The notes under the pieces are model-generated. The model had not been told where the DNA came from. It made no database searches and worked only from the letters and a program-made list of their open reading frames with translations. Both the position numbers and the translations under genes were made by a program. 64,000 nt of DNA from Gammaproteobacteria bacterium (GTDB taxonomy: Bacteria; Bacteroidota; Bacteroidia; Flavobacteriales_D; JABDKJ01): contig JBLIMR010000003.1 in assembly GCA_047638815.1 (NCBI GenBank), positions 16,988-80,987 on the forward strand, given 5' to 3'. Positions 5,993 through 30,175 of this stretch are shown here, piece by piece (the first letter of the stretch is position 1; every line of letters starts with the position of its first letter).

Positions 5993-7501
5993 GTGATTAA
6001 ATGGTTTAACATATTGTTGTTGTGTTTAGTGACTGGGGCATTTGATGCTCAGTTCACTTATTTCAACGAAATTTGTGGAGAATTGAGCGATACCTTAGGT
6101 GATACATTTACCGATGTTGAAATCATTAACGATACAATATATACTTATGGAGCCTATGCTGATCCTAGTGGCCAATATTTGCAATTGAAAAAATATGATC
6201 GTACTGGTGAACTTATTATTTCAAAAGAGTTTGAACTAGACAACAACACGACATATTTTATTGAATTTAAATACTCCTATGTGAAAGATAATAATAGTGA
6301 AAACCTCTACTTCAGTTTTGGTTTAAGCGATAGCATTAGCTCCAGAGGTATTGTTGGCAAGGTCAACGAAGACTTAGATACTCTCTGGACCAAACAATAT
6401 GATCACTATAATCCCCATACGTACTTAAGAGGAAATTTGGATATTGACGATGGAATAATTTTAGTCGGTGAAATAGAATCTGATGGCTCCCAAAGGGGCA
6501 CCATGCTAACGAAAATAGATTATGATGGTATTATTATTTGGGATGAAGTACTGGGACATGCAAATGGGAATATAAATCGCAACGCAAATGTTATTAGAAA
6601 AGGTGGCTATTTGTTTCTTGGAGGATCGGTAAGATCCGATGGCATTTTAGTCGGTCTTTTAACTAAAACTGATTTAAACGGCAATGTGTTATGGGAAAAT
6701 TTTTATGATGACTCGCAAGAACCCATCGAAACCAATTCTAGTTCATATACTGTAGAAATTTTGGATAGTGGAGATGCAATCTCCGTTAATTCTGTAGATA
6801 ATGAATCTGCAGGGCCATCAACATTGGATTGGTACATAAAGGTTATAGTTAATAAAGTGGATTTTGAGAATGATTCCATTTATTGGGAGTAACAATAATT
6901 AGACAACTATGAATCACAGAATGGCGGTGTGATAAAAGTTGTCCCAACGGCTGAAGGTGGCATGATTATTTTGGGTGGTGATCTTAATGGTGATTTAGTA
7001 AGCTGGCTCTTGAAAATAGACGAAGATGGCATCCAAGAATGGCATAAACATTATGGCTATGAAATTGGTTACCAACACTTCAATCAGCCCTTCGATGTAG
7101 AGCAATGTTCCGATGGCGGCTATCTTATTGTTGGAAAATATACCAACTGGAATGAACCAGGTACCCAAGCTAGATCATGGATGGTAAAAACTGATCCCTG
7201 TGGGGATATAGAATGGAATGGTTGTGTGCCAGTGGGTATTGGTGATATTGAGATGATTGATCAGGAGGATGTGAGGTTGTATCCTAATCCTACAGCGGGC
7301 AATTTCACAATACAACTTGCTAACTTGTTTCATAATGGGGAAGTTCAAATATATAATATGATGGGAAGCTTGGTATACCATAAAAGAATCAATGGAGAAA
7401 AAAGTGGTCACGCTTTGAATTTAAATTCAGGTATATATCTCATTAATTTATTGGAAGAAAATCGGGTTGTCTGGTTGGAGAGGTTGGAAATTGTGCGGTA
7501 A
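5993..7501 (+). pseudogene. T9SS type-A CTD secreted protein (propeller-like repeats) interrupted by two in-frame TAA codons
   Basis: ORFs 5993..6892 and 6929..7501 share a frame. The junction reads YWE-TAA-CAA-TAA-LDNYESQNGGVIKVV. Signal peptide in part 1; CTD (LYPNP...YNMMG...SGIYLINL...LEIVR) in part 2. Confidence 0.8.
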
Positions 7502-23316: not shown

Positions 23317-23481
23317 GTATTGCTGAAAGACATTGAAGGATCAAACCTACCAAAAATTAGTGTCATTTTTTATTGCTGAAATAAATTTGAAGTTTCCATT
23401 TATCAGCCACTCTTAAAAGTATAAATCACATAGCAGATCACAAGTCAGGAACAACTGTATTAAGCTGACAGAATCAAATCG

Positions 23482-24618
23482 CTAATTGAGTATTCTAATT
23501 TCGCCTGAATCTTGATTGTTACGATACTTAATGTTATAAATGTATAAACCCATTGGTAAGATTTGATCATTGGAATCGTGGCCCTTCCAAACATTCGCTC
23601 CATTGGAATCTAGTTGTTTTGCATAAACCAATTGACCACTCTTTGCATTATAAACCTCCAGATTAGCATTCTTGTCGAATGTTAATTCAATGGGTATTTC
23701 CCAAAATACACTCTGTGACTGGGATATAATAATGTCACAGTTCCGTTCTCCAACCTCAACAATAGTTGGATTACTCTTGCATCGATTTCCATCCAGTACC
23801 ATAACGTTATAATTTCCTTTTGCAAGAGTATTAAATTCTCTTTCCAGTTGCGGATAATTATCATCTATCATAAAAGAATAATTTTGAGGGAATTCTTCGT
23901 TTCTAATCTTTATGCGACCATTATTTTTATCTGAGCATGATGGAATTACATCTATATCCAGTGTCACAGAATAGCTATCACAAATGACTTTCTCTTTATG
24001 GGCAGTTTCTTCAGATGTGCCCAGGACACCTTCAAGTGGAGCCAAAACATCGGGCTTTACCGTTAACCGAACCAATTCTGAGAGCGCCTCTTTTTTTATC
24101 ATTTCTGAAATATTTGAAGCATCAATATTCGCCTTAGCCGCTGGCTCAAAAACATTTTCATTCATTCTTCCATCGGTCTTGTTTACTACACTCTGAAATG
24201 AATCAACCTTATCGCTTTTCACAATTAATTTTGCTGTTGACTCTATATCTGTTCTTTGATCTTCAAAAACCTCATCTTTGCTTGTGATTTCTGAATTTGA
24301 TTTAGAATCAAACACATTGTCTTTTGATTCTGAAAGATAAATCCAAGATCCAGCCGAAACTAAAATGACAAGTACAGTTAGTCCACTCCAAAATCCTTTG
24401 AATCCAGAACTTTTCAGATGAATACTTTTCAGTTCCCTTTTAATTGATGCTAATTCCTTATTCCTAATCAGTTGATTTGCCGCTTTATGATTTTGCAAAT
24501 ATTGCTCGAAACCATTTTCAACTAAACGTCTTCTTTCAAATTCCATTAAGGCATCCCCAGAAAGTTTTCCGTCTAGAAAATTCTGTATCAATTCATATGT
24601 TCCCAAACCTTTATTCAT
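23482..24618 (-). CDS. Putative anti-sigma factor: cytoplasmic N-domain, TM helix, linker, SprB-like repeat, type-B T9SS CTD-like C-terminus
   Basis: IQNFLDGKLSG...FE N-terminus; one TM (FWSGLTVLVILVSAGSWIYL); PSCSDKNNGRI...FNTLAKGNYNVMVLDGNRC; C-terminal VYNAKSGQLVY...WKGHD...LPMGLYIY. Overlaps the sigma gene by 8 nt. Confidence 0.7.
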   Translation of the reverse strand: MNKGLGTYELIQNFLDGKLSGDALMEFERRRLVENGFEQYLQNHKAANQLIRNKELASIKRELKSIHLKSSGFKGFWSGLTVLVILVSAGSWIYLSESKDNVFDSKSNSEITSKDEVFEDQRTDIESTAKLIVKSDKVDSFQSVVNKTDGRMNENVFEPAAKANIDASNISEMIKKEALSELVRLTVKPDVLAPLEGVLGTSEETAHKEKVICDSYSVTLDIDVIPSCSDKNNGRIKIRNEEFPQNYSFMIDDNYPQLEREFNTLAKGNYNVMVLDGNRCKSNPTIVEVGERNCDIIISQSQSVFWEIPIELTFDKNANLEVYNAKSGQLVYAKQLDSNGANVWKGHDSNDQILPMGLYIYNIKYRNNQDSGEIRILN

Positions 24619-25189
24619 CGAATAAATAATCTTTTAACCCTTTCTTGTCTTTTACTAAAAGAACCAATCGCTGTTTGCATTTATAGTTCTTGGTTTTAGC
24701 GGCATTGGCATTAGAGAATCCCATGCGAAGCGCTATATCTTCCATGGACATTTTATAAAAAACACTATAAGTTAGTAGCTCCTCACATCTCGCGCCCAGC
24801 TCAGCGAGCAGAGAGGATATTTTCATTTCATTTTCTTCTGATATATCAATTTTTTCAGAAACATCAGGCACTTGATAAGGAAGCTCTCCGCTCTCTCGAT
24901 TAACAAGTTTCACTCTGTTAATCCACATGTTTTTAGCTGATGAAAAAATGAAAGCTGTAACACTTTTAGTTGCATCGAATTTATCATCCAATACATAGTT
25001 GTAAAACGACAAAACTGCATCTTGAAAAACATCCTGAGCATCATCATTGTTTCCACTGTTTTTAATAATCCACCCTGTAACTTTTGGCTGAACAGTTTTG
25101 TACAAAAAATTCAATACCTGGTTTGACTCTGCATTTTTTATCAATGCAATAATCTCCTGATCACTATATGTTTTTTGACGCTTGAACAC
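24611..25189 (-). CDS. ECF-type RNA polymerase sigma-70 factor
   Basis: DAQDVFQDA (region 2) and SMEDIALRMGFSNANAAKTKNYKCKQRL (region 4). Confidence 0.92.
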   Translation of the reverse strand: MFKRQKTYSDQEIIALIKNAESNQVLNFLYKTVQPKVTGWIIKNSGNNDDAQDVFQDAVLSFYNYVLDDKFDATKSVTAFIFSSAKNMWINRVKLVNRESGELPYQVPDVSEKIDISEENEMKISSLLAELGARCEELLTYSVFYKMSMEDIALRMGFSNANAAKTKNYKCKQRLVLLVKDKKGLKDYLFDE

Positions 25190-25191
25190 GA

Positions 25192-27774
25192 CTATCTAAT
25201 AACGGTTATCTTTCGGATTACTTCCGTTTCCTTACACCTCAGAATATATTCTCCCATAGGCAATGTCAGACCGTTTCCATCGGTTCCTTGCCAATATTCT
25301 TGGCTAATCAATTCAGTAACTACAATCCCGTTTCTATCATATACAGTGACATTGCCGCAAGAGAGCTTTACTTGATCATCATATCCATCGTTATTAGGAG
25401 TGATAATATTCGATTCTGGTGTGTTGGCCATAAATTCTATCGGCTTACAAATGGTTATCGAGCAATTATCCGTCAAGTTGAAATTCGTCATGCAAACATT
25501 ATATGCATTTGGAAATGAAAATTGATGGGTGGGGTTCTCCTCAATACTAGAGTTACCATCACCAAAATCCCAAGAATATTCTGTCCCAGTTCCACTACTA
25601 ACAAAACTGTAATAGCTTCCAATATTTACATAACTGAAGTCGGCATCGATCTGACAAGCGCACTCATCACAATCACACTGATCTTCTGAAGGAATTGCAC
25701 AAGAGAATAGTAATCCTGACACAAACTGAGACATAACGATTTGACTTACATGACCAGTAAATATCACTGTCCCAGAAAACCAATAATCAGCCAATGGATA
25801 TTCGCTATTTAATGCATTTGTATCTACCGTTAATTCAATGTCATCAATTACGTATGGTTGATTTAGGTATATCGTCTCAAGTGATACAGCATCTCCCCCA
25901 TTAACGGAAAAAAAAGTTTGATTGCCCCACACGGAACTAATATCATCCCAATTAAAAAATCCGTAAACACCTATCGAAATCTCCTTATGTGTGCTATCAA
26001 AATCCATTTGGTATTCACCCTCATCAAGGTATATTCCTGGTGCATTTGGATCGTTATTATCCTCTGTGTAATCGTTACAATCCGATTCTTCCTCCACAAT
26101 AGGCATCGTACATGAGGATAGTAAACCCCACTCCATTTGATTCAGTGTAATATTACTAATATTTCCCGTTAGAGTTACAGTCCCTGTATTCGTTCCTTCC
26201 CAATAGAGGTAATCGCCAGGTATAGCATTGGTGTCTAATTCAATGACTACATCATTGAAAGTATAAGGTGAATTTAGAACAATGGTCTCTAGTGTCACGT
26301 AATCCCCGTTAATATTAATTGAAGCGTAAGGTAAAAGACCACCTTGCGCATCCGCAATCCAATCCGCAAACACGCCATATACCCCTAAGGATACTTCTTG
26401 GTATGTGCCATCATAATTCAAGGTGTAATCATCCCATAGAAGCCAGATTCCAGGTAAACTTGGATCACTATTCCATTCAGTATAATTTATGCAATCGTCA
26501 AGAAATGTAGGCTCTGTACATGAAAACAATAATCCAGATTCAAATTGCGTCATAATAATTTCCTCAATAGCCCCAGTAAAAGAAATAGTAGCCGAGGTCC
26601 AATCAAAAGAAGATTGAGAAAGATATTCATCATTTAAAGAAGTCAAGTCCATATCAATAAAAAGGTCACCCAACAGCATGGGGACATTTTGTTGAATATA
26701 TTTCAATGACAAGGATTGCCCGTTCTCGAACGTGAAAATAGTTTGATTTTGTTGACCACTAGTAGACCAGTTGTCAAATAGTCCGTATACGCCCATTGCC
26801 ACAGTCTGATAAGATCCATCGAATGGGATTACAACATCTGAACCACCATATATCCCAGGAAAATTGGGGTCGTTATTATCCTCAGTGTAATCCTCACAAT
26901 CTATCAGCAATCCTTGTCCCTCAACACATAAAAACTTAATACCTGATTCTACTTGATGGGTAATAATCAAATCTATTTCCCCTTCAAAAATTATCGTTCC
27001 CGAAATCATATTGTCTGGCACATTATAACTTGCCGGGATTGCAGTTGTATCGATCGTAATTGCAACACCCCCTATCATATATGGTTGGTTTTCATAAATC
27101 GTCCCTAGCCCAATCATTTCACTTCCGTTAACGGAGAAGAAACTTTGATCTACTGACATATCAGTCACTTGATCCTCAAACGATATATAATCGAAATAAC
27201 CAATGCTCACTTCTATCTCTTCACCACTAAAAGCGAATCGATAAGCATTGGTAATTATATATCCCGGAAATCCTGGGTCGTCCCCTTCAAATTGATAATC
27301 ATGGCCGGTTATTTCCTCTAGCGAATCAACACATGAAAAAAGCAATCCAGACTCAAACTGAGTCATCGTAATGTTGTTAATTGCACCTGTAAATTTCACT
27401 GTTCCCGAAGTCCAAATTGATGATGCGTTCGGAAGATATTCATCGTTAATAGAGGTTGTATTTAAGGATACATAAACCCCATTAATAAAGGTCAAAAAAT
27501 CGGTTAATTCTGAAACGGCAATTGGCTCACTGCCGTTAACAGAAAAGAATGTTTGATTCGCCTGAGAATCATTAGACCAACCTTCAAAAAATCCATATAT
27601 ACCAAGCTCTACTTCTTGATTGGTTCCATCATAATCTATGGAGAAGTCACCGCCACCATATATACCTGGGTCATTATCGGTCCCCTCTGTTTCATAGTAG
27701 TTGTTACATTCCTTTGCATTAATAGATAAAATACTGATGGCCAACATTGAAATTATGAACGATATTTTTTTCAT
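25192..27774 (-). CDS. Secreted repeat protein: five ~134-aa repeats, PKD domain, type-B T9SS (gliding-motility-associated) CTD
   Basis: Signal peptide; repeats C..Y.E...DP..PGIY...GVYG...FFSVNG...SGT..FTG....QFESGLLFSC; PKD YSWDFGDG...NPTHQF; CTD NIITPNNDGYDD...VYDRNG...WQG...LPMGEY. Confidence 0.88.
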   Translation of the reverse strand: MKKISFIISMLAISILSINAKECNNYYETEGTDNDPGIYGGGDFSIDYDGTNQEVELGIYGFFEGWSNDSQANQTFFSVNGSEPIAVSELTDFLTFINGVYVSLNTTSINDEYLPNASSIWTSGTVKFTGAINNITMTQFESGLLFSCVDSLEEITGHDYQFEGDDPGFPGYIITNAYRFAFSGEEIEVSIGYFDYISFEDQVTDMSVDQSFFSVNGSEMIGLGTIYENQPYMIGGVAITIDTTAIPASYNVPDNMISGTIIFEGEIDLIITHQVESGIKFLCVEGQGLLIDCEDYTEDNNDPNFPGIYGGSDVVIPFDGSYQTVAMGVYGLFDNWSTSGQQNQTIFTFENGQSLSLKYIQQNVPMLLGDLFIDMDLTSLNDEYLSQSSFDWTSATISFTGAIEEIIMTQFESGLLFSCTEPTFLDDCINYTEWNSDPSLPGIWLLWDDYTLNYDGTYQEVSLGVYGVFADWIADAQGGLLPYASININGDYVTLETIVLNSPYTFNDVVIELDTNAIPGDYLYWEGTNTGTVTLTGNISNITLNQMEWGLLSSCTMPIVEEESDCNDYTEDNNDPNAPGIYLDEGEYQMDFDSTHKEISIGVYGFFNWDDISSVWGNQTFFSVNGGDAVSLETIYLNQPYVIDDIELTVDTNALNSEYPLADYWFSGTVIFTGHVSQIVMSQFVSGLLFSCAIPSEDQCDCDECACQIDADFSYVNIGSYYSFVSSGTGTEYSWDFGDGNSSIEENPTHQFSFPNAYNVCMTNFNLTDNCSITICKPIEFMANTPESNIITPNNDGYDDQVKLSCGNVTVYDRNGIVVTELISQEYWQGTDGNGLTLPMGEYILRCKETEVIRKITVIR
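25699..27708 (-). repeat. Five intragenic ~400-bp domain repeats
   Basis: Protein repeats span aa 23-692. DNA 26051-26082 and 26870-26901 match at 29 of 32 positions. Confidence 0.85.
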
Positions 27775-27802
27775 CTCTTTAAAGTTTTAGTTGTTATCAT
27801 AC

Positions 27803-27832
27803 ATACAATTTCATTTTCAAAATGTAACCCCT
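27803..27832 (-). promoter_or_regulatory. Putative ECF promoter, copy 1 (AGGGGTTAC-N15-TTGTAT)
   Basis: Minus strand AGGGGTTAC attttgaaaatgaaa TTGTAT, 28 nt upstream of the repeat-protein ATG; same boxes and spacing as copy 2. Confidence 0.7.
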
Positions 27833-27838
27833 GCTTCA

Positions 27839-28744
27839 TTAAAAAATGGTGTATTGGCATGTTAATTCAAATGCATTGACATTGGTTCTTGTATTATTAA
27901 GATTGGGTGCAAAATATCCCAACTCAAAATTTAGTCTATTGTTTTTCTTAGCCTTTCTGTCTTCGAAATTTTTTGTAAAACCATTCAGCCCAAGAAAAAA
28001 ATGAGTTCCCTCCTTTGCTTCATAAGATGCTCCAAAATTGACTAAAGACTTTAATGCAAATTTCAGCCCCATACCACCACGAATATCATCCTGATCTCGG
28101 TTAAGATCCGCGTATCTCACAAAAGCTAAAGGTCTAATGACCATACTTGCATTTAGCAAGATGTCATGGCTATAGCGTAAGTTATAAATTGGTTCTAATC
28201 TTATAATTTGTTCCAGTGGTTGAACCTCACCTCCATTAAGTTGATTAACAGAAAAACTTAGATATTGAGAATTACTATATAAGTGCAATCCAACACCAAA
28301 ATCTTCAGTCACAGAATTCGCTCCTCCTGTTACAGGATTCGATTTAATGGTAAAGTTGTACAATCCAACATTCAGTCCTGCTGCCAACATCCACTTCTCT
28401 GATATGGCTAGATGACGACTATAAGACAAAAAAGTTCTGTTCCGCCTGATTACATCTCCCTCCCTATCATTGTTAAAGTGAATCCCTAATACATGAAAGT
28501 TTCTATCTCGTTTTAAAATCCGGCTATTGAAAGAAGCGTAAGATGTTTTTACACCTGAAAAAACACCTGAATTTTGCTTAGTGCCCAGTGAGAACTCAAA
28601 ATCGCCTTCTGAACCAGCTTGTGCAGGATTTATCTGTGGGTTGTTAAAAAACTGTCCGAAATGAATTGGCAGCTCATCTATCTGAGAAAAACCAACATGA
28701 GAGCAAATAAATAAAAGAAGGAATAAGGATAGTCGTTTGGCCAT
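27839..28744 (-). CDS. PorP/SprF family T9SS outer-membrane beta-barrel
   Basis: Signal peptide, FGQFFNNPQINPAQAG N-terminal motif, alternating beta strands, C-terminal NAFELTCQY; adjacent to a type-B CTD gene. Confidence 0.85.
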   Translation of the reverse strand: MAKRLSLFLLLFICSHVGFSQIDELPIHFGQFFNNPQINPAQAGSEGDFEFSLGTKQNSGVFSGVKTSYASFNSRILKRDRNFHVLGIHFNNDREGDVIRRNRTFLSYSRHLAISEKWMLAAGLNVGLYNFTIKSNPVTGGANSVTEDFGVGLHLYSNSQYLSFSVNQLNGGEVQPLEQIIRLEPIYNLRYSHDILLNASMVIRPLAFVRYADLNRDQDDIRGGMGLKFALKSLVNFGASYEAKEGTHFFLGLNGFTKNFEDRKAKKNNRLNFELGYFAPNLNNTRTNVNAFELTCQYTIF

Positions 28745-28765
28745 TAACTGTTATTTACGATGTAA

Positions 28766-28795
28766 ATACAATCGAAAAATATAAAAGTAACCCCT
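28766..28795 (-). promoter_or_regulatory. Putative ECF promoter, copy 2 (AGGGGTTAC-N15-TTGTAT)
   Basis: Minus strand AGGGGTTAC ttttatatttttcga TTGTAT, 21 nt upstream of the porP-like ATG. Confidence 0.7.
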
Positions 28796-28837
28796 TTACT
28801 ATGTTTTTTTGTAAAAAATGATCCTCATTGATGGGAT

Positions 28838-30175
28838 CTAATCTTTTTTTGCTTCTCCTCTCAGTATTTTAAAATAATCTTCCACTGCACTAAAACTAAC
28901 AGTGTTTGTCTTGAAATGCTCAATAATTAATAGTTTCTCATTCTCGCTACACTCCAAGGTATTCATAATATTAAGCAAATGCATCTTCATGTGACCTTTT
29001 TGAATACCGGTTGTTACCAAGGACCGAACGGCACCAAAATTTTGTGCCAGGCCAGAACATGCTACAATTTTCATTAATTCATCTGAGTTGGGATTCCCCA
29101 ATAGATCAAAGGAGAATTTCACCATGGGATGTAATTTTGTTAAACCACCAACAGTTCCCATAGCCATCGGCAAATCAATCCAAAATTTAAATATCCCATT
29201 TTCGACAGAACATTTAGTCAAACTTCTATATTGACCGTCTCTAGCGGCATAAGTATGAGCACAAGCCTCAATGGCTCTGAAATCGTTTCCAGTAGCTATA
29301 ACTACCGCATCGACACCATTCATTATGCCTTTATTATGGGTAGTTGCCCTATATGGCTCAACCGTAGCAATTCTGATGGCTCTTTGAAATTTATTCGCAA
29401 AGTCCTCAGCCGATATGTCTGATTTTGGATCAACCAAGTCTACAACTGGACAAGAAACTTCCGCACGAACGATACAATCGGGCGTGAAATTGGATAATAT
29501 GCTCATGACAACTTCAAATCCCTCTTTATCCGAAGCACCAAAAACAGTCGAATTCTCAATCTCATCTTGCAATGTTTGAGCCAGTTGCTCAAGCACTGAG
29601 TTGATGAAATTCGCACCCATTGCATCTTGGGTGTCAAAGGTTGCTTTTAGCTGAAAATATCCATCTTCATCTGCAGATTTATCGATCAGATCCAGCGTTA
29701 AGAAGCCACCACCTCTTCTGACCATATTTTTAGTCAGGTCCTCGGTTTCTTTAAAGAAGGTTGGTTTTACTTGCTCAAAAAACTCCTTAAGCTTCTCTGT
29801 ATCTCCATTATAAATGAAGTGAACGTGTCCAATTTTTATCTTGGAAATCACCTCAGCCTTGAATCCACCACGGGCCAACCAATATGAGGCGGACTTTGCG
29901 GCAGCAGCCACTACAGAACTCTCTTCTATGGCAAAAGGGACACAATAAAGTTTGTCGTTTATCAAGAAATTAGGCGCGACACCATAGGGAGTGAAGAAAT
30001 TACTCACAGTATTCTCTATGAATTCATCATGTTTTTTCTGCACTACCCCATCATGGTGCCAGTAGCTTCGAAGAAAATCAACAACCTTCTCGTTTCCATC
30101 AAAATACGACTGAATCATCCATTCAATCTTACCTTGCTTCGTTAATTTTGAAAATCCCTTGATCGGTTCTACCAT
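28838..30175 (-). CDS. mvaA: Hydroxymethylglutaryl-CoA reductase (class II)
   Basis: IENTV, EESSVVAA, DAMGANFIN, RATTHNKGIMNG and GIQKGHMKMH. Confidence 0.93.
   Translation of the reverse strand: MVEPIKGFSKLTKQGKIEWMIQSYFDGNEKVVDFLRSYWHHDGVVQKKHDEFIENTVSNFFTPYGVAPNFLINDKLYCVPFAIEESSVVAAAAKSASYWLARGGFKAEVISKIKIGHVHFIYNGDTEKLKEFFEQVKPTFFKETEDLTKNMVRRGGGFLTLDLIDKSADEDGYFQLKATFDTQDAMGANFINSVLEQLAQTLQDEIENSTVFGASDKEGFEVVMSILSNFTPDCIVRAEVSCPVVDLVDPKSDISAEDFANKFQRAIRIATVEPYRATTHNKGIMNGVDAVVIATGNDFRAIEACAHTYAARDGQYRSLTKCSVENGIFKFWIDLPMAMGTVGGLTKLHPMVKFSFDLLGNPNSDELMKIVACSGLAQNFGAVRSLVTTGIQKGHMKMHLLNIMNTLECSENEKLLIIEHFKTNTVSFSAVEDYFKILRGEAKKD

What the first reader, a model, noticed from the sequence alone, without database searches (positions are those of the whole stretch)
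23482..28795. Four-gene cassette linking type-B T9SS secretion to an ECF sigma/anti-sigma pair
Seen: four co-oriented genes (PorP/SprF barrel, repeat protein with type-B CTD, ECF sigma, TM anti-sigma-like protein). The last three are packed with a 2-nt gap and an 8-nt overlap, and the same promoter-like motif precedes genes 1 and 2. Established: type-B CTD cargo such as SprB needs a cognate, usually adjacent, PorP/SprF protein, and ECF sigmas are usually co-transcribed with their anti-sigma and autoregulate. Inference: this is a self-contained trans-envelope signalling unit built on a PorP barrel rather than a TonB receptor, controlling display of its own surface protein. I do not know of a characterised example.
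Basis: partly seen in the sequence, partly recalled or inferred. Interest (0 to 1): 0.85.

Follow-up and report, generated by a model that had tools for sequence, protein, structure and literature searches.

The report
Anti-sigma factor carrying a T9SS secretion signal
A small gene cassette found in scattered Bacteroidota pairs a surface-protein export unit with its own genetic switch, and the switch's membrane sensor ends in the same kind of export tag as the cargo, which suggests that the secretion machine itself controls the switch.

Summary
On the minus strand lie a PorP/SprF barrel gene (27839-28744), an 860-aa cargo with PKD and a type-B-like CTD (25192-27774), an ECF sigma (24611-25189) and a 378-aa single-pass protein (23482-24618). 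The 2-nt gap, the 8-nt overlap and the shared motif GGGGTTAC-N14-ATTGTAT before genes 1 and 2 are all present. These two sites are the only exact copies in the 3.29-Mb genome.

The cassette is a conserved module. It was seen in 22 further loci from Flavobacteriales, Cytophagales, Saprospiraceae and other Bacteroidota MAGs. A PorP gene is present in 18 of the 18 loci (window included) that reach far enough to show one. The motif recurs before PorP, cargo and, where sigma is transcribed divergently, before sigma itself, which indicates autoregulation.

The fourth protein consists of an anti-sigma domain, a TM helix, a disordered tether of constrained length (87-122 aa), one SprB repeat and a CHU_C-type T9SS CTD. 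The anti-sigma domain has a predicted sigma complex score of 0.85 against a best control of 0.00.

Best reading: a sigma/anti-sigma switch whose sensor is a tethered T9SS substrate mimic. Engagement by the T9SS and its dedicated PorP carrier would release sigma. That step is inferred, not shown. Six literature searches found no described example. The closest concepts are PorA-PorXY-SigP and FecA-FecR.

The parts
28820..28838 (-). Hairpin followed by a T-run at the end of the upstream HMG-CoA reductase gene. It is terminator-like and sets the cassette apart as its own transcription unit.
   Evidence: One search lists the stem-loop on the + strand; one search shows the minus-strand sequence with its T-run; one search identifies the upstream gene as PF00368.
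28766..28794 (-). ECF-type promoter motif 1 (GGGGTTAC-N14-ATTGTAT). It ends 21 nt before the PorP start codon.
27839..28744 (-). PorP/SprF-family outer-membrane barrel (301 aa, with a signal peptide). This divergent subfamily travels with the module and is the presumed dedicated carrier.
   Evidence: above both cut-offs. In one search it scores 47-223 bits against module PorPs of other orders, but only 1 of its own-genome paralogs is hit, at 29.8 bits. One search finds 10-11 PorP genes in the genome, and this one scores lowest against Pfam among the 10 clear matches.
27803..27831 (-). ECF-type promoter motif 2, in the 64-nt PorP-cargo spacer. It ends 28 nt before the cargo start codon.
25687..27714 (-). 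Cargo passenger region: five tandem repeats of about 135 aa (residues 21-696) with no Pfam family. They are not shared with the cargos of other module loci.
   Evidence: self-matches at 21-160, 161-286, 292-421, 427-558, 565-696; other cargos match only residues ~650-860.
25195..25668 (-). Cargo anchor unit: a PKD domain plus a type-B-like C-terminal domain (residues ~703-860). This is the only part shared by the cargos of all module loci.
   Evidence: PKD above cut-off; CHU_C 22.1 and TIGR04131 23.5, both below cut-off.
24611..25189 (-). ECF sigma factor (192 aa, GTG start aligned with the Met of its relatives), 2 nt after the cargo stop codon.
24403..24618 (-). Anti-sigma N-terminal domain (residues 1-72), helical and cytoplasmic.
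   Evidence: this domain follows the sigma gene in 52 of 60 non-module loci as well; zf-HC2 in 16 of 48 at E<=1; NF052375 antisigma in 6 of 22; complex score 0.85, best control 0.00; pLDDT ~90.
24331..24387 (-). Single transmembrane helix (residues 78-96).
   Evidence: hydropathy window; continuous helix 37-97.
24004..24324 (-). Disordered periplasmic tether (residues ~99-205). Its sequence is unconserved but its length is constrained.
   Evidence: pLDDT <50 over 99-205; no consensus residues in this stretch; 87-122 aa, median 110, in 39 distinct members.
23734..23997 (-). One divergent SprB-type repeat (residues ~208-295) with four conserved cysteines.
   Evidence: this stretch matches up to 39 repeats in giant proteins; those proteins are PF13573 SprB-repeat proteins; C213 and C280 invariant, C228 and C294 at 90% or more.
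23485..23733 (-). CHU_C-type T9SS C-terminal sorting domain of the anti-sigma factor (residues 296-378).
   Evidence: 35.2 bits against cut-off 27; 22 of 22 family members; beta-sandwich, pLDDT >90; PorU, GhpA and the RgpB CTD are among the top structural matches.

Best explanation
The cassette is a self-regulating surface-display module with four parts. PorP* is a dedicated PorP/SprF-type carrier. The cargo has a variable passenger fused to a conserved PKD+CTD anchor. The sigma is an ECF sigma. The anti-sigma factor has an unusual periplasmic end: a minimal T9SS type-B-like secretion unit (one SprB repeat plus a CHU_C domain) hung on a ~110-residue disordered tether from the inner membrane.

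Shown or strongly supported: the sigma and the N-domain of the TM protein form a cognate sigma/anti-sigma pair. The sigma's likely promoter (GGGTTAC, about 16 nt, TGTA) sits before PorP*, the cargo and, directly or by read-through, sigma itself. The regulon is therefore the cassette, and it autoregulates.

Inferred: at rest the anti-sigma holds sigma at the membrane. Its tethered CTD reaches the outer membrane and is recognised like a cargo CTD by the SprA translocon and/or PorP*. Because it is anchored, the motor-driven extraction step of the T9SS pulls on it, or simply sequesters it. This would expose the anti-sigma to regulated proteolysis and free sigma. Transcription of carrier and cargo would then be tied to a working T9SS with free carrier.

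The direction of the response (engagement activates rather than silences) is my best guess, not a result.
For: 1) Synteny. In loci fetched with the sigma or the anti-sigma, the 19 best sigma loci (L030-L048) gave 17 with a downstream protein of the architecture ASD-TM-linker-SprB repeat-CTD, 1 cut by its contig end after the SprB repeat (L041) and 1 whose contig ends after sigma (L044). L054 has the architecture too. A PorP gene is present in 18 of 18 loci (window included) that extend far enough, and a CTD-bearing cargo in 20 of 20.

2) Each part belongs to a module-specific subfamily. P0001 scores 47-223 bits against module PorPs from other orders but hits only 1 own-genome paralog, at 29.8 bits.

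3) Promoter. A template made only from the window's two sites (20 shared positions) finds, at <=4 mismatches, 20 hits in 13 of 22 module loci (237 kb). It finds 0 in the reversed control and 1 in 60 non-module loci (731 kb), and that one lies before a module remnant. Of the 20 hits, 17 lie 9-76 nt upstream of a PorP, CTD-protein or sigma start on the same strand, 1 overlaps an over-extended PorP ORF start, and 2 lie elsewhere. In divergent loci the motif sits directly before sigma in 5 of 7 (L040, L043, L044, L047, L048).

4) Anti-sigma identity. The N-domain HMM hits the gene after sigma in 52 of 60 non-module loci whose C-termini differ. zf-HC2 matches 16 of 48 at E<=1, best 7.9e-5. NF052375 'anti-sigma factor' matches 6 of 22. 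Complex prediction gave 0.85 in three runs, with the best of 3 controls at 0.00. That mark was reached by 58 of 80 solved complexes and 2 of 110 mismatched pairs. The runs agree in >=86% of contacts and the partner pLDDT is >=85. The contacts fall on both sigma region 2 (residues 22-64) and region 4 (116-189). My own alignments were used, so the calibration counts hold only roughly, and because sigma/anti-sigma complexes are solved the pass may reflect likeness.

5) CTD identity. CHU_C matches 22 of 22 members. The fold is a beta-sandwich with pLDDT >90, and T9SS proteins are among the top structural hits. Free homologs of the SprB-repeat+CTD unit are small signal-peptide proteins lying next to PorP-like genes.

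6) Tether. Its length is 87-122 aa in 39 distinct members with no sequence conservation, as expected for a spacer that must span a fixed distance.

7) The genome has an SprA translocon (2589.6 bits), 10-11 PorP genes and about 30 CHU_C proteins.

8) Precedents. One carrier can serve several type-B CTDs (PMC12618676, abstract and sections 10 and 12 read). A T9SS CTD can act as a periplasmic regulator of an ECF cascade (PorA-PorY; PMC12152298, abstract and section 2.8 read). Motor-driven removal of an anti-sigma's periplasmic domain triggers its cleavage (FecR; PMC12036975, abstract read).
Against: The anti-sigma CTD is divergent. TIGR04131 (type B) hits 3 of 22 members and TIGR04183 (type A) hits 2 of 22. 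For P0004 itself the only NCBIfam hit is type A, at 17.2 bits and below cut-off.

The two CTDs of the cassette are not clearly each other's nearest relatives. The anti-sigma-CTD HMM ranks the cassette cargo first in the genome, but only by 22.1 against 20.5 bits. The cargo-CTD HMM ranks the anti-sigma fourth. Same-locus CTD pairs score only slightly above cross-locus pairs (57.6 against 50.5; the own cargo ranks first in 4 of 16; permutation 0.0022, inflated by kinship).

A canonical T9SS substrate has a cleavable signal peptide and leaves the inner membrane; this protein is anchored. Other anti-sigmas of the same ECF group carry unrelated sensor domains, so the C-terminal domain could be just another sensor.

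No expression data exist. All module-bearing genomes found are MAGs, so nothing has been tested in culture.
Confidence: 0.55

Rival explanations
1. Outside-in cell-surface signalling. PorP*, with its displayed cargo, acts as the receptor. An external cue such as a ligand, a surface or load on the adhesin-like cargo changes PorP*. The anti-sigma CTD, bound to PorP* from the periplasmic side, relays this inward, as FecA does to FecR.
For: The conserved four-gene linkage and autoregulated promoter fit this equally well. The tether is long enough to reach the outer membrane. The cargo has adhesin-like repeats and a PKD domain. In the same ECF group, one anti-sigma carries a TonB_C domain, another module that contacts the outer membrane.
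Against: PorP* is a bare ~300-aa barrel with no extra periplasmic signalling domain comparable to the N-terminal extension of TonB-dependent transducers; Pfam finds only PF11751, spanning residues 27-298. According to the T9SS model described in PMC12635249 (introduction read), carriers meet the substrate after it has moved through the SprA channel, not from the periplasm. The cargo passengers differ completely between loci, so a common external ligand is unlikely.
Confidence: 0.2
2. An ordinary ECF sigma/anti-sigma pair whose periplasmic Ig-like domains sense an unrelated envelope or chemical signal. It regulates the neighbouring PorP-cargo operon, but its C-terminal domain is never handled by the T9SS.
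For: Anti-sigmas of this ECF group carry many different C-terminal sensors: trypsin-like peptidase in 3 of 10 scanned, TonB_C in 1 of 10 and no family in 6 of 10. The CTD is divergent and weakly typed. FlgD_ig, a generic beta-sandwich, also matches 16 of 22 members.
Against: CHU_C matches 22 of 22 members. The SprB repeat followed by a CTD is the exact C-terminal arrangement of type-B cargo, and free homologs are secreted-type proteins lying beside PorP genes. The domain co-occurs with a dedicated PorP subfamily in 18 of 18 readable loci across several orders. This rival does not explain the constrained tether length.
Confidence: 0.17
3. A shed dual-use protein. The anti-sigma is cleaved constitutively in its tether, and the released SprB-repeat+CTD fragment is simply a second small cargo of PorP*. 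There is no regulatory coupling, so the fusion only secures co-expression.
For: Free proteins with the same two domains exist. One carrier can serve several CTDs (PMC12618676, sections 10 and 12 read).
Against: The fusion is preserved as one open frame in 39 distinct members from several orders, with a conserved anti-sigma domain. Constitutive cleavage would make the anti-sigma pointless as a regulator. No conserved cleavage motif is visible in the tether.
Confidence: 0.05

Closest known systems
PorA - PorY/PorX - SigP control of T9SS genes in Porphyromonas gingivalis (PMC7712824, passages read; PMC12152298, abstract and section 2.8 read)
   Same: A T9SS C-terminal sorting domain doubles as a periplasmic regulatory signal that ends at an ECF sigma factor. 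In that system an inner-membrane-tethered version of the CTD protein still signals.
   Different: In P. gingivalis the CTD protein is a free cargo, bound to A-LPS and PorV. It acts as a ligand of a histidine kinase, and the response regulator PorX stabilises SigP; no anti-sigma is involved. It controls the T9SS machinery genes. Here the CTD is covalently part of the anti-sigma factor, a dedicated PorP carrier is encoded alongside, and the regulon appears to be only the cassette.
TonB-dependent cell-surface signalling (FecA-FecR-FecI type; PMC12036975, abstract read)
   Same: An ECF sigma is held by a single-pass anti-sigma whose periplasmic C-terminal domain contacts an outer-membrane barrel encoded in the same autoregulated unit. 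In Fec, an envelope motor removes that domain and starts a cleavage cascade.
   Different: The cassette has no TonB-dependent transducer, no FecR domain and no FecI-type sigma above cut-off. The barrel is PorP/SprF and the motor would be the T9SS energy chain. The anti-sigma's sensor is a secretion signal domain.
Type-B CTD cargo with cognate PorP/SprF carrier, such as SprB-SprF or Fjoh_3952-Fjoh_3951 (PMC12618676, abstract and sections 10 and 12 read; PMC12635249, introduction read)
   Same: A PorP/SprF-family gene lies next to a cargo that ends in a CHU_C/type-B-like CTD. The carrier subfamily is specific to its CTDs. The genome has SprA and about ten such carriers.
   Different: The gene order is carrier then cargo, whereas the three other carrier-cargo pairs I compared in this genome run cargo then carrier. 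No regulator with a CTD is described in those papers. By inspection, P0001 has no SprF-type C-tail with twin cysteines: it has a single Cys six residues from the end.
FlgM / sigma-28 secretion checkpoint of flagella (recalled, no call)
   Same: The logic is the same: an anti-sigma factor that is itself a substrate of the secretion machine, so that gene expression reports secretion competence.
   Different: FlgM is soluble and is exported whole through a type III system. Here the anti-sigma is membrane-anchored and only its periplasmic end could be engaged, by a type IX system.

Membership tests
PorP/SprF family (PF11751, TIGR03519) | Profile match above the curated cut-offs over the whole barrel | tested here: met
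   PF11751 scores 101.4 against 22.3 over residues 27-298; TIGR03519 scores 98.1 against 90.55.
PorP/SprF family (PF11751, TIGR03519) | Encoded next to a type-B CTD cargo | tested here: met
   The adjacent 860-aa protein ends in a CHU_C/TIGR04131-like domain. The same pairing is seen in all readable module loci.
PorP/SprF family (PF11751, TIGR03519) | SprF-type periplasmic C-tail with twin cysteines, the link to the gliding track (PMC12635249) | tested here: not met
   By inspection, P0001 ends at the last strand and has one Cys. Module PorPs of other loci end without a Cys pair. This concerns the SprF subtype only, not the family.
T9SS type-B sorting domain (PF13585 CHU_C / TIGR04131): anti-sigma P0004 | C-terminal profile match above cut-off | tested here: inconclusive
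   CHU_C scores 35.2 against 27 and so is met, and it matches 22 of 22 family members at E<=0.01. TIGR04131 gives no hit for P0004 and hits 3 of 22 members. TIGR04183 (type A) scores 17.2 against 23 for P0004 and hits 2 of 22.
T9SS type-B sorting domain (PF13585 CHU_C / TIGR04131): anti-sigma P0004 | Cleavable N-terminal Sec signal peptide, so that the protein is free in the periplasm | tested here: not met
   Residues 1-72 form a folded helical cytoplasmic domain, followed by a TM helix at 78-96. The protein is a signal-anchored membrane protein, so it is not an ordinary T9SS cargo.
T9SS type-B sorting domain (PF13585 CHU_C / TIGR04131): anti-sigma P0004 | Secretion or anchoring depends on the T9SS and a cognate PorP/SprF carrier; the five motifs A-E are present | not testable with these tools
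   This needs experiment. The motif figure of PMC12618676 is not held as text.
T9SS type-B sorting domain: cargo P0002 | C-terminal profile match above cut-off, plus a signal peptide | tested here: inconclusive
   CHU_C scores 22.1 against 27 and TIGR04131 23.5 against 35, both below cut-off. An N-terminal hydrophobic signal-like segment is visible. The CTD is shared with the cargos of all module loci.
ECF (group 4) sigma-70 factors | Regions 2 and 4 only, about 190 aa, profile above cut-off | tested here: met
   TIGR02937 scores 55.2 against 42.9. Sigma70_r2 scores 27.1 against 24. Sigma70_r4_2 scores 18.4, below its cut-off. The protein is 192 aa.
ECF (group 4) sigma-70 factors | Co-transcribed anti-sigma and an autoregulated promoter | tested here: met
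   The genes overlap by 8 nt. The motif lies upstream of the operon, and upstream of sigma itself in 5 of 7 divergent loci. This is comparative inference; no transcript data exist.
Class I anti-sigma domain (zf-HC2, PF13490) | Profile match, and binding between sigma regions 2 and 4 | tested here: inconclusive
   P0004 itself has no Pfam hit. Of the homologous N-domains, 16 of 48 match zf-HC2 at E<=1, best 7.9e-5. NF052375 matches 6 of 22. The PDB chain 3hug_B (RslA by my recollection; the entry title reads 'probable conserved membrane protein') matches at E 0.57. The predicted complex scores 0.85 against a best control of 0.00, with contacts on both sigma domains.
Class I anti-sigma domain (zf-HC2, PF13490) | Zinc-binding His/Cys motif (ZAS subtype; motif recalled) | tested here: not met
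   There is no Cys in residues 1-72 of P0004 and no conserved Cys or His pair in alignment A1 or A3. It is therefore not a zinc-binding anti-sigma.
FecIR-type TonB-dependent cell-surface signalling | FecR domain on the anti-sigma, a TonB-dependent transducer with an N-terminal signalling extension, and a FecI-type sigma | tested here: not met
   Pfam finds no FecR domain and the cassette has no TonB-dependent receptor. FecI models score 18-19 bits against cut-offs of 185-260. The cassette may work like this system but is not a member.
PorXY-SigP cascade | Histidine kinase PorY, response regulator PorX and a SigP-type orphan ECF sigma | tested here: not met
   The cassette and its immediate flanks contain no kinase or response regulator. 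The sigma has an adjacent anti-sigma.

The most novel reading that the evidence does not exclude
[quoted passage not shown] Its CTD enters the SprA translocon and is gripped by the dedicated PorP* carrier. The proton-motive-force-driven extraction step then pulls on the ~110-residue tether, and the resulting tension or unmasking triggers intramembrane proteolysis and sigma release. This would be a mechanical secretion checkpoint, combining FlgM-like logic with FecR-like force. It would be the first case of a T9SS directly gating transcription through an anti-sigma factor that it handles as cargo.
Probability: 0.3. Interest if true: 0.88.

Novelty: new variant of a known kind. Interest (0 to 1): 0.76.

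Why it matters
How Bacteroidota match the production of T9SS cargo to the capacity of the secretion machine is largely open. The one studied circuit, PorA-PorXY-SigP, is indirect and known from a single pathogen. This module offers a compact, four-gene, apparently self-contained circuit in which the regulatory protein physically carries the secretion signal. It makes three questions directly testable with a promoter reporter. Does a T9SS carrier or translocon recognise a CTD that cannot be released from the inner membrane? Can the T9SS motor transmit force to an inner-membrane protein? Do PorP-type carriers have a signalling role? The module would add a new sensor class to ECF anti-sigma factors. 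As an orthogonal sigma/promoter pair tied to surface display, it could also serve as a tool in Flavobacterium or Cytophaga engineering. The family is annotated publicly only as 'gliding motility-associated C-terminal domain-containing protein' or 'hypothetical protein', so its regulatory half is currently invisible in databases.

Tried and rejected
- Word-indexed protein searches gave little. P0004 alone found 1 relative. The family profile A1 found 5 at E<=1e-10 because only 8000 candidates were scored. Family size therefore rests on the exhaustive HMMER search, which found at least 21 full-length clusters among the best 150 of 3274 hits, and on an ESM Atlas lead of 14 clusters of 50 or more members at score >=0.9.
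- The search for related loci with the anti-sigma alignment A1 failed because no stretch was conserved enough. I used the sigma alignment A2 instead.
- An iterated PWM trained on the module loci was circular and noisy at its threshold. I replaced it with the fixed two-site template test.
- Three near-matches to the motif elsewhere in the genome (C6, C1, C19) have no plausible downstream gene and fall within the reversed-control rate. I rejected them as targets.
- The sigma-70 consensus scan found nothing above the shuffles: 21 sites against a mean of 23.6.
- A whole-model Foldseek search gave only generic tandem-Ig matches with low TM-scores.
- CTD-to-CTD closeness within the cassette was weak or inconclusive.
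- Expression: no RNA holder was listed for this stretch.
The supplementary tables of the ECF reclassification (PMC7826278) may already list this ECF group and the Pfam architecture of its anti-sigma; its main text holds no 'CHU_C' or 'gliding'.
- An early note of mine called PorA a type-B CTD protein. The papers say it is A-LPS/PorV-bound, and that P. gingivalis has one other type-B protein. This is corrected here.

Full report
WHAT IS THERE.
- Gene 1 (27839-28744, P0001, 301 aa) is a PorP/SprF-family barrel, above both curated cut-offs (PF11751 101.4 against 22.3; TIGR03519 98.1 against 90.55).
- Gene 2 (25192-27774, P0002, 860 aa) starts with a signal-like hydrophobic segment. It has five tandem repeats of about 135 aa with no Pfam family, then a PKD domain above cut-off, then a C-terminal CHU_C/TIGR04131 match below both cut-offs (22.1 against 27; 23.5 against 35).
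- Gene 3 (24611-25189, P0003, 192 aa, GTG start) is an ECF sigma (TIGR02937 55.2 against 42.9). Its GTG aligns with the Met of its relatives.
- Gene 4 (23482-24618, P0004, 378 aa) matches CHU_C above cut-off at its C-terminus (35.2 against 27).

The 2-nt gap and the 8-nt overlap are as described. The motif GGGGTTAC-N14-ATTGTAT lies at 28766-28794 and 27803-27831 on the minus strand, ending 21 and 28 nt before the start codons of genes 1 and 2. These are the only matches in the window at up to 2 mismatches (0.12 expected). A slightly shorter exact pattern has no other match in the 3.29-Mb, 136-contig genome and none in the reversed control.

The flanks are housekeeping genes: HMG-CoA reductase, a DinB-like DUF1572 protein, an EngA-type GTPase, RecQ and acetyl-CoA synthetase. 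The upstream gene ends in a hairpin with a T-run just before motif 1. The cassette therefore looks like a discrete transcription unit.

THE CASSETTE IS A CONSERVED MODULE. An exhaustive HMMER search with P0004 found 3274 proteins at E<=0.001. Most of them match only residues ~220-290 or the CTD, but at least 21 clusters (at 50% identity) among the best 150 are full-length relatives of 369-393 aa. Their alignment (A1, 22 sequences) conserves the first ~70 residues, a hydrophobic helix, four cysteines in the 208-295 region and the CTD. Nothing is conserved in between.

Searching 401 genomes of the same order found full-length relatives in six genomes of two other families. Their loci carry sigma immediately upstream and, where the contig reaches far enough, cargo and PorP in the same order as here. 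The module sigmas are much better conserved (44-58% identity, alignment A2), so I used them to scan one genome per species of GTDB. There, 277 of 599 candidate stretches were confirmed and the best 80 were kept.

With HMMs for the three parts of P0004, for sigma and for PorP, the results were as follows.
- The 19 best sigma loci (L030-L048) comprise 17 with a downstream protein of the same full architecture (362-398 aa), 1 cut by the contig end after the SprB-type repeat (L041) and 1 whose contig ends after sigma (L044). L054, lower in the list, also has the architecture.
- Counting the window and removing duplicates, that gives 23 module loci.
- A PorP gene is present in 18 of the 18 loci that extend far enough. 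L054's was confirmed by Pfam at 54.7 bits. The other five begin too close to sigma or cargo to tell.
- A neighbouring protein sharing the cargo's PKD+CTD end is present in 20 of the 20 loci that can be read.

The record titles name MAGs of Flavobacteriales, Vicingaceae, Saprospiraceae, Cyclobacteriaceae, Cytophagaceae, Cytophagales, Ohtaekwangia and a 'Bacteroidales' bin. No cultured strain was among them.

Two arrangements exist. In the Flavobacteriales, Vicingaceae and Saprospiraceae loci the order is PorP, then cargo (1 to 3 copies), then sigma, then anti-sigma, all in tandem. In the Cytophagales-type loci the PorP-cargo unit is transcribed divergently from sigma/anti-sigma.

EACH PART IS A MODULE-SPECIFIC SUBFAMILY. 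The genome has 10-11 PorP genes, about 30 CHU_C-bearing ORFs and an SprA translocon (2589.6 bits). P0001 is the weakest Pfam scorer among the ten clear PorPs. By phmmer it hits only one of its own-genome paralogs (29.8 bits), yet it scores 47-223 bits against module PorPs from other orders. The cargos share only their last ~160-200 residues (PKD+CTD), and the passengers are unrelated. In the three other PorP-cargo pairs of this genome that I compared by coordinates, the cargo precedes PorP; here PorP comes first.

THE PROMOTER. By eye, the motif recurs before PorP and cargo genes in the tandem loci and before sigma in the divergent loci. For an unbiased count I built a template from the window's two sites only (20 of 29 positions shared) and scanned by mismatch.
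- At <=4 mismatches there are 20 hits in 13 of 22 module loci (237 kb). There are none in the same sequences reversed, and 1 in 60 non-module sigma loci (731 kb). That one lies directly before the truncated sigma of a decayed module (L057).
- Of the 20 hits, 17 lie 9-76 nt upstream of the start of a PorP, a CTD protein or sigma on the same strand. One overlaps a probably over-extended PorP ORF start (L035). Two, both in L038, lie elsewhere.
- At <=5 mismatches the background rises (17 hits in the non-module loci). Even so, the hits sit immediately before sigma in 5 of 7 divergent loci: L040, L043, L044, L047 and L048.

The groups were defined by protein architecture and not by the motif, but the loci are kin, so these counts are not independent events. 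The geometry is that of ECF promoters (recalled general knowledge): a -35-like GGTTAC followed by a T-run, about 16 nt, then TGTA. The regulon predicted from the motif is the cassette alone. The three near-matches elsewhere in the genome have no gene behind them and fall within the reversed-control rate.

THE FOURTH PROTEIN IS AN ANTI-SIGMA FACTOR. The N-domain HMM hits the gene right after sigma not only in module loci but in 52 of 60 non-module loci of the wider sigma group. There the rest of the protein is different (180-908 aa). Of ten such proteins scanned, three carry a trypsin-like peptidase domain, one a TonB_C domain and six no Pfam family. A domain that stays with the sigma while the sensor part changes is what an anti-sigma domain does.

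Profile evidence is weak but consistent:
- zf-HC2 matches 16 of 48 N-domains at E<=1, best 7.9e-5.
- NCBIfam 'anti-sigma factor' NF052375 matches 6 of 22.
- The PDB chain 3hug_B matches at E 0.57.

There is no Cys/His zinc motif. Complex prediction on sigma (alignment A4) with residues 1-72 (alignment A3) gave 0.85 in three runs against 0.00 for the best of three controls. That mark was reached by 58 of 80 solved complexes and 2 of 110 mismatched pairs. The runs agree in at least 86% of contacts, and the partner pLDDT is at least 85. The contacts fall on both sigma region 2 (22-64) and region 4 (116-189). The alignments were my own, so the calibration holds only roughly. Since sigma/anti-sigma complexes are solved, the pass shows likeness to that class rather than proof of binding.

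ITS PERIPLASMIC END IS A T9SS SECRETION UNIT ON A TETHER. AlphaFold2 with A1 gives helices over residues 7-97 (the hydrophobic stretch is 78-96), a disordered stretch over 99-205 (pLDDT below 50) and two confident beta domains over 215-378 (pLDDT mostly above 90). The first beta domain is the unit that matches up to 39 times in giant proteins, and those proteins are SprB-repeat proteins (PF13573, 7-12 repeats in the three scanned). The second is CHU_C in 22 of 22 family members.

Typing by NCBIfam is poor: TIGR04131 hits 3 of 22 and TIGR04183 hits 2 of 22. Structural neighbours include PorU, the RgpB CTD and the T9SS-secreted GhpA, among generic Ig tandems. Small proteins made only of a signal peptide, this repeat and this CTD exist, and in three genomes they lie just before a PorP-like gene.

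The tether is 87-122 residues (median 110) in 39 distinct members, although no residue in it is conserved. At about 0.35 nm per residue (my arithmetic) that is up to ~38 nm. By my recollection of typical periplasmic widths, that is enough to reach the outer membrane.

HOW IT MOST LIKELY WORKS. Three things are shown or strongly supported: a cognate ECF sigma/anti-sigma pair, a cassette-specific promoter with autoregulation, and a dedicated PorP subfamily and CTD subfamily travelling together.

The rest is inferred. The current T9SS model says that a type-B substrate passes through SprA, binds its own docked carrier, stays bound, and the pair is ejected by the motor-driven energy chain (PMC12635249, introduction read). 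One carrier can serve several CTDs (PMC12618676, sections 10 and 12 read). The anti-sigma's CTD can therefore be expected to be recognised like the cargo's. Because it is anchored in the inner membrane, engagement would either hold it under tension or sequester it. I propose that this opens the anti-sigma to regulated proteolysis and frees sigma, so that carrier and cargo are made when the T9SS works and carrier is free.

The FecR cascade gives a precedent for a motor removing an anti-sigma's periplasmic domain (PMC12036975, abstract read). PorA gives a precedent for a CTD acting as a periplasmic regulator, even when tethered to the inner membrane (PMC12152298, abstract and section 2.8 read). 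The sign of the response, and whether PorP* or SprA is the first contact, are open.

EVIDENCE AGAINST, AND RIVALS. Nothing here shows contact between the anti-sigma CTD and any T9SS part. The two CTDs of the cassette are not clearly nearest relatives. Same-locus pairs are only slightly more alike than cross-locus pairs: 57.6 against 50.5, with the own cargo ranking first in 4 of 16 and a permutation value of 0.0022 that kinship inflates. The protein breaks one defining rule of T9SS cargo, which is a cleavable signal peptide.

The rivals are as follows.
It is weakened by the bare barrel and by the unrelated passengers.
- An ordinary ECF pair with a generic Ig-like sensor. It is weakened by the 22 of 22 CHU_C matches, the SprB-repeat+CTD arrangement, the strict PorP linkage and the tether length.
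- A constitutively shed second cargo.

KNOWN OR NEW. Six full-text searches combined anti-sigma or ECF terms with T9SS, type-B CTD, SprF-like, CHU_C/TIGR04131 and cell-surface signalling terms. They returned no paper describing an anti-sigma factor with a T9SS sorting domain or an ECF pair embedded in a PorP-cargo unit. I read passages of PMC7826278, PMC8999054, PMC9723704 and PMC7712824. The library lacks most subscription journals, and supplements were closed. The one public name found for a family member refers to the CTD only, and Atlas clusters are labelled 'hypothetical protein'. I therefore rate this a new variant of known kinds (ECF cell-surface signalling, and CTD-based regulation of T9SS), and not a categorically new system.

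VERDICT. The mechanistic core, a T9SS-engaged anti-sigma, is plausible, testable and unproven. Interest is 0.76.

Noticed in passing
window 25687-27714 (-): The cargo passenger consists of five tandem repeats of about 135 aa, each with conserved Cys and aromatic positions. It has no Pfam or NCBIfam family and no counterpart in the cargos of other module loci.
   Followed up: partly
L089:7542-8654, L076:7480-8649, L064:7571-8638, L051:3542-5437: In the wider ECF group, the same anti-sigma N-domain is fused to a trypsin-like peptidase domain (3 of 10 scanned). In one case it is fused to a TonB_C domain, another anti-sigma that could plug into an outer-membrane energy system.
   Followed up: partly
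L023:10486-11526 and L057:6876-7399 (same contig of G027, about 30 kb apart): This is a decayed module. A sigma lacking its first ~60 residues is still preceded by the motif. The anti-sigma lacks its first ~46 residues and lies about 30 kb away in the same contig. Genes whose products read like glycosyltransferases lie just upstream of it. PorP and cargo are gone.
   Followed up: partly
L047:2379-4766 (-): In one Cytophagales MAG the motif also precedes a 774-aa SprB-repeat protein with a type-A sorting domain (Por_Secre_tail, 45.1 bits). The regulon can therefore include a type-A cargo.
   Followed up: partly
L005:1267-2906, L006:584-2238, L012:584-2202: Small proteins (235-247 aa) made of a signal peptide and a CTD like the anti-sigma's lie just before ~304-aa PorP-like genes. 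One of them (L005) also matches the SprB-type repeat. They may represent the free ancestor of the anti-sigma's sensor unit.
   Followed up: partly
genome G000, e.g. C1:220840-222029, C7:47669-48936, C2:29030-30162: In three other PorP-cargo pairs of this genome the cargo gene precedes PorP. In the cassette, and in the other module loci where both genes are readable, PorP precedes the cargo.
   Followed up: no
window 7301-7438 (+) (G000:C3:24288-24425): A weak CHU_C-like match (21.5 bits, below cut-off) lies in a 190-200-aa ORF elsewhere in the window.
   Followed up: no
L037:947-7001: One Flavobacteriales MAG has an expanded module with two PorP genes and three cargo genes ahead of a single sigma/anti-sigma pair.
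   Followed up: no
window 23400-28900: Near-identical DNA is held by runs labelled ice, seawater and sediment metagenomes, and no RNA run was listed. Nine of the runs may be the source sample.
   Followed up: no
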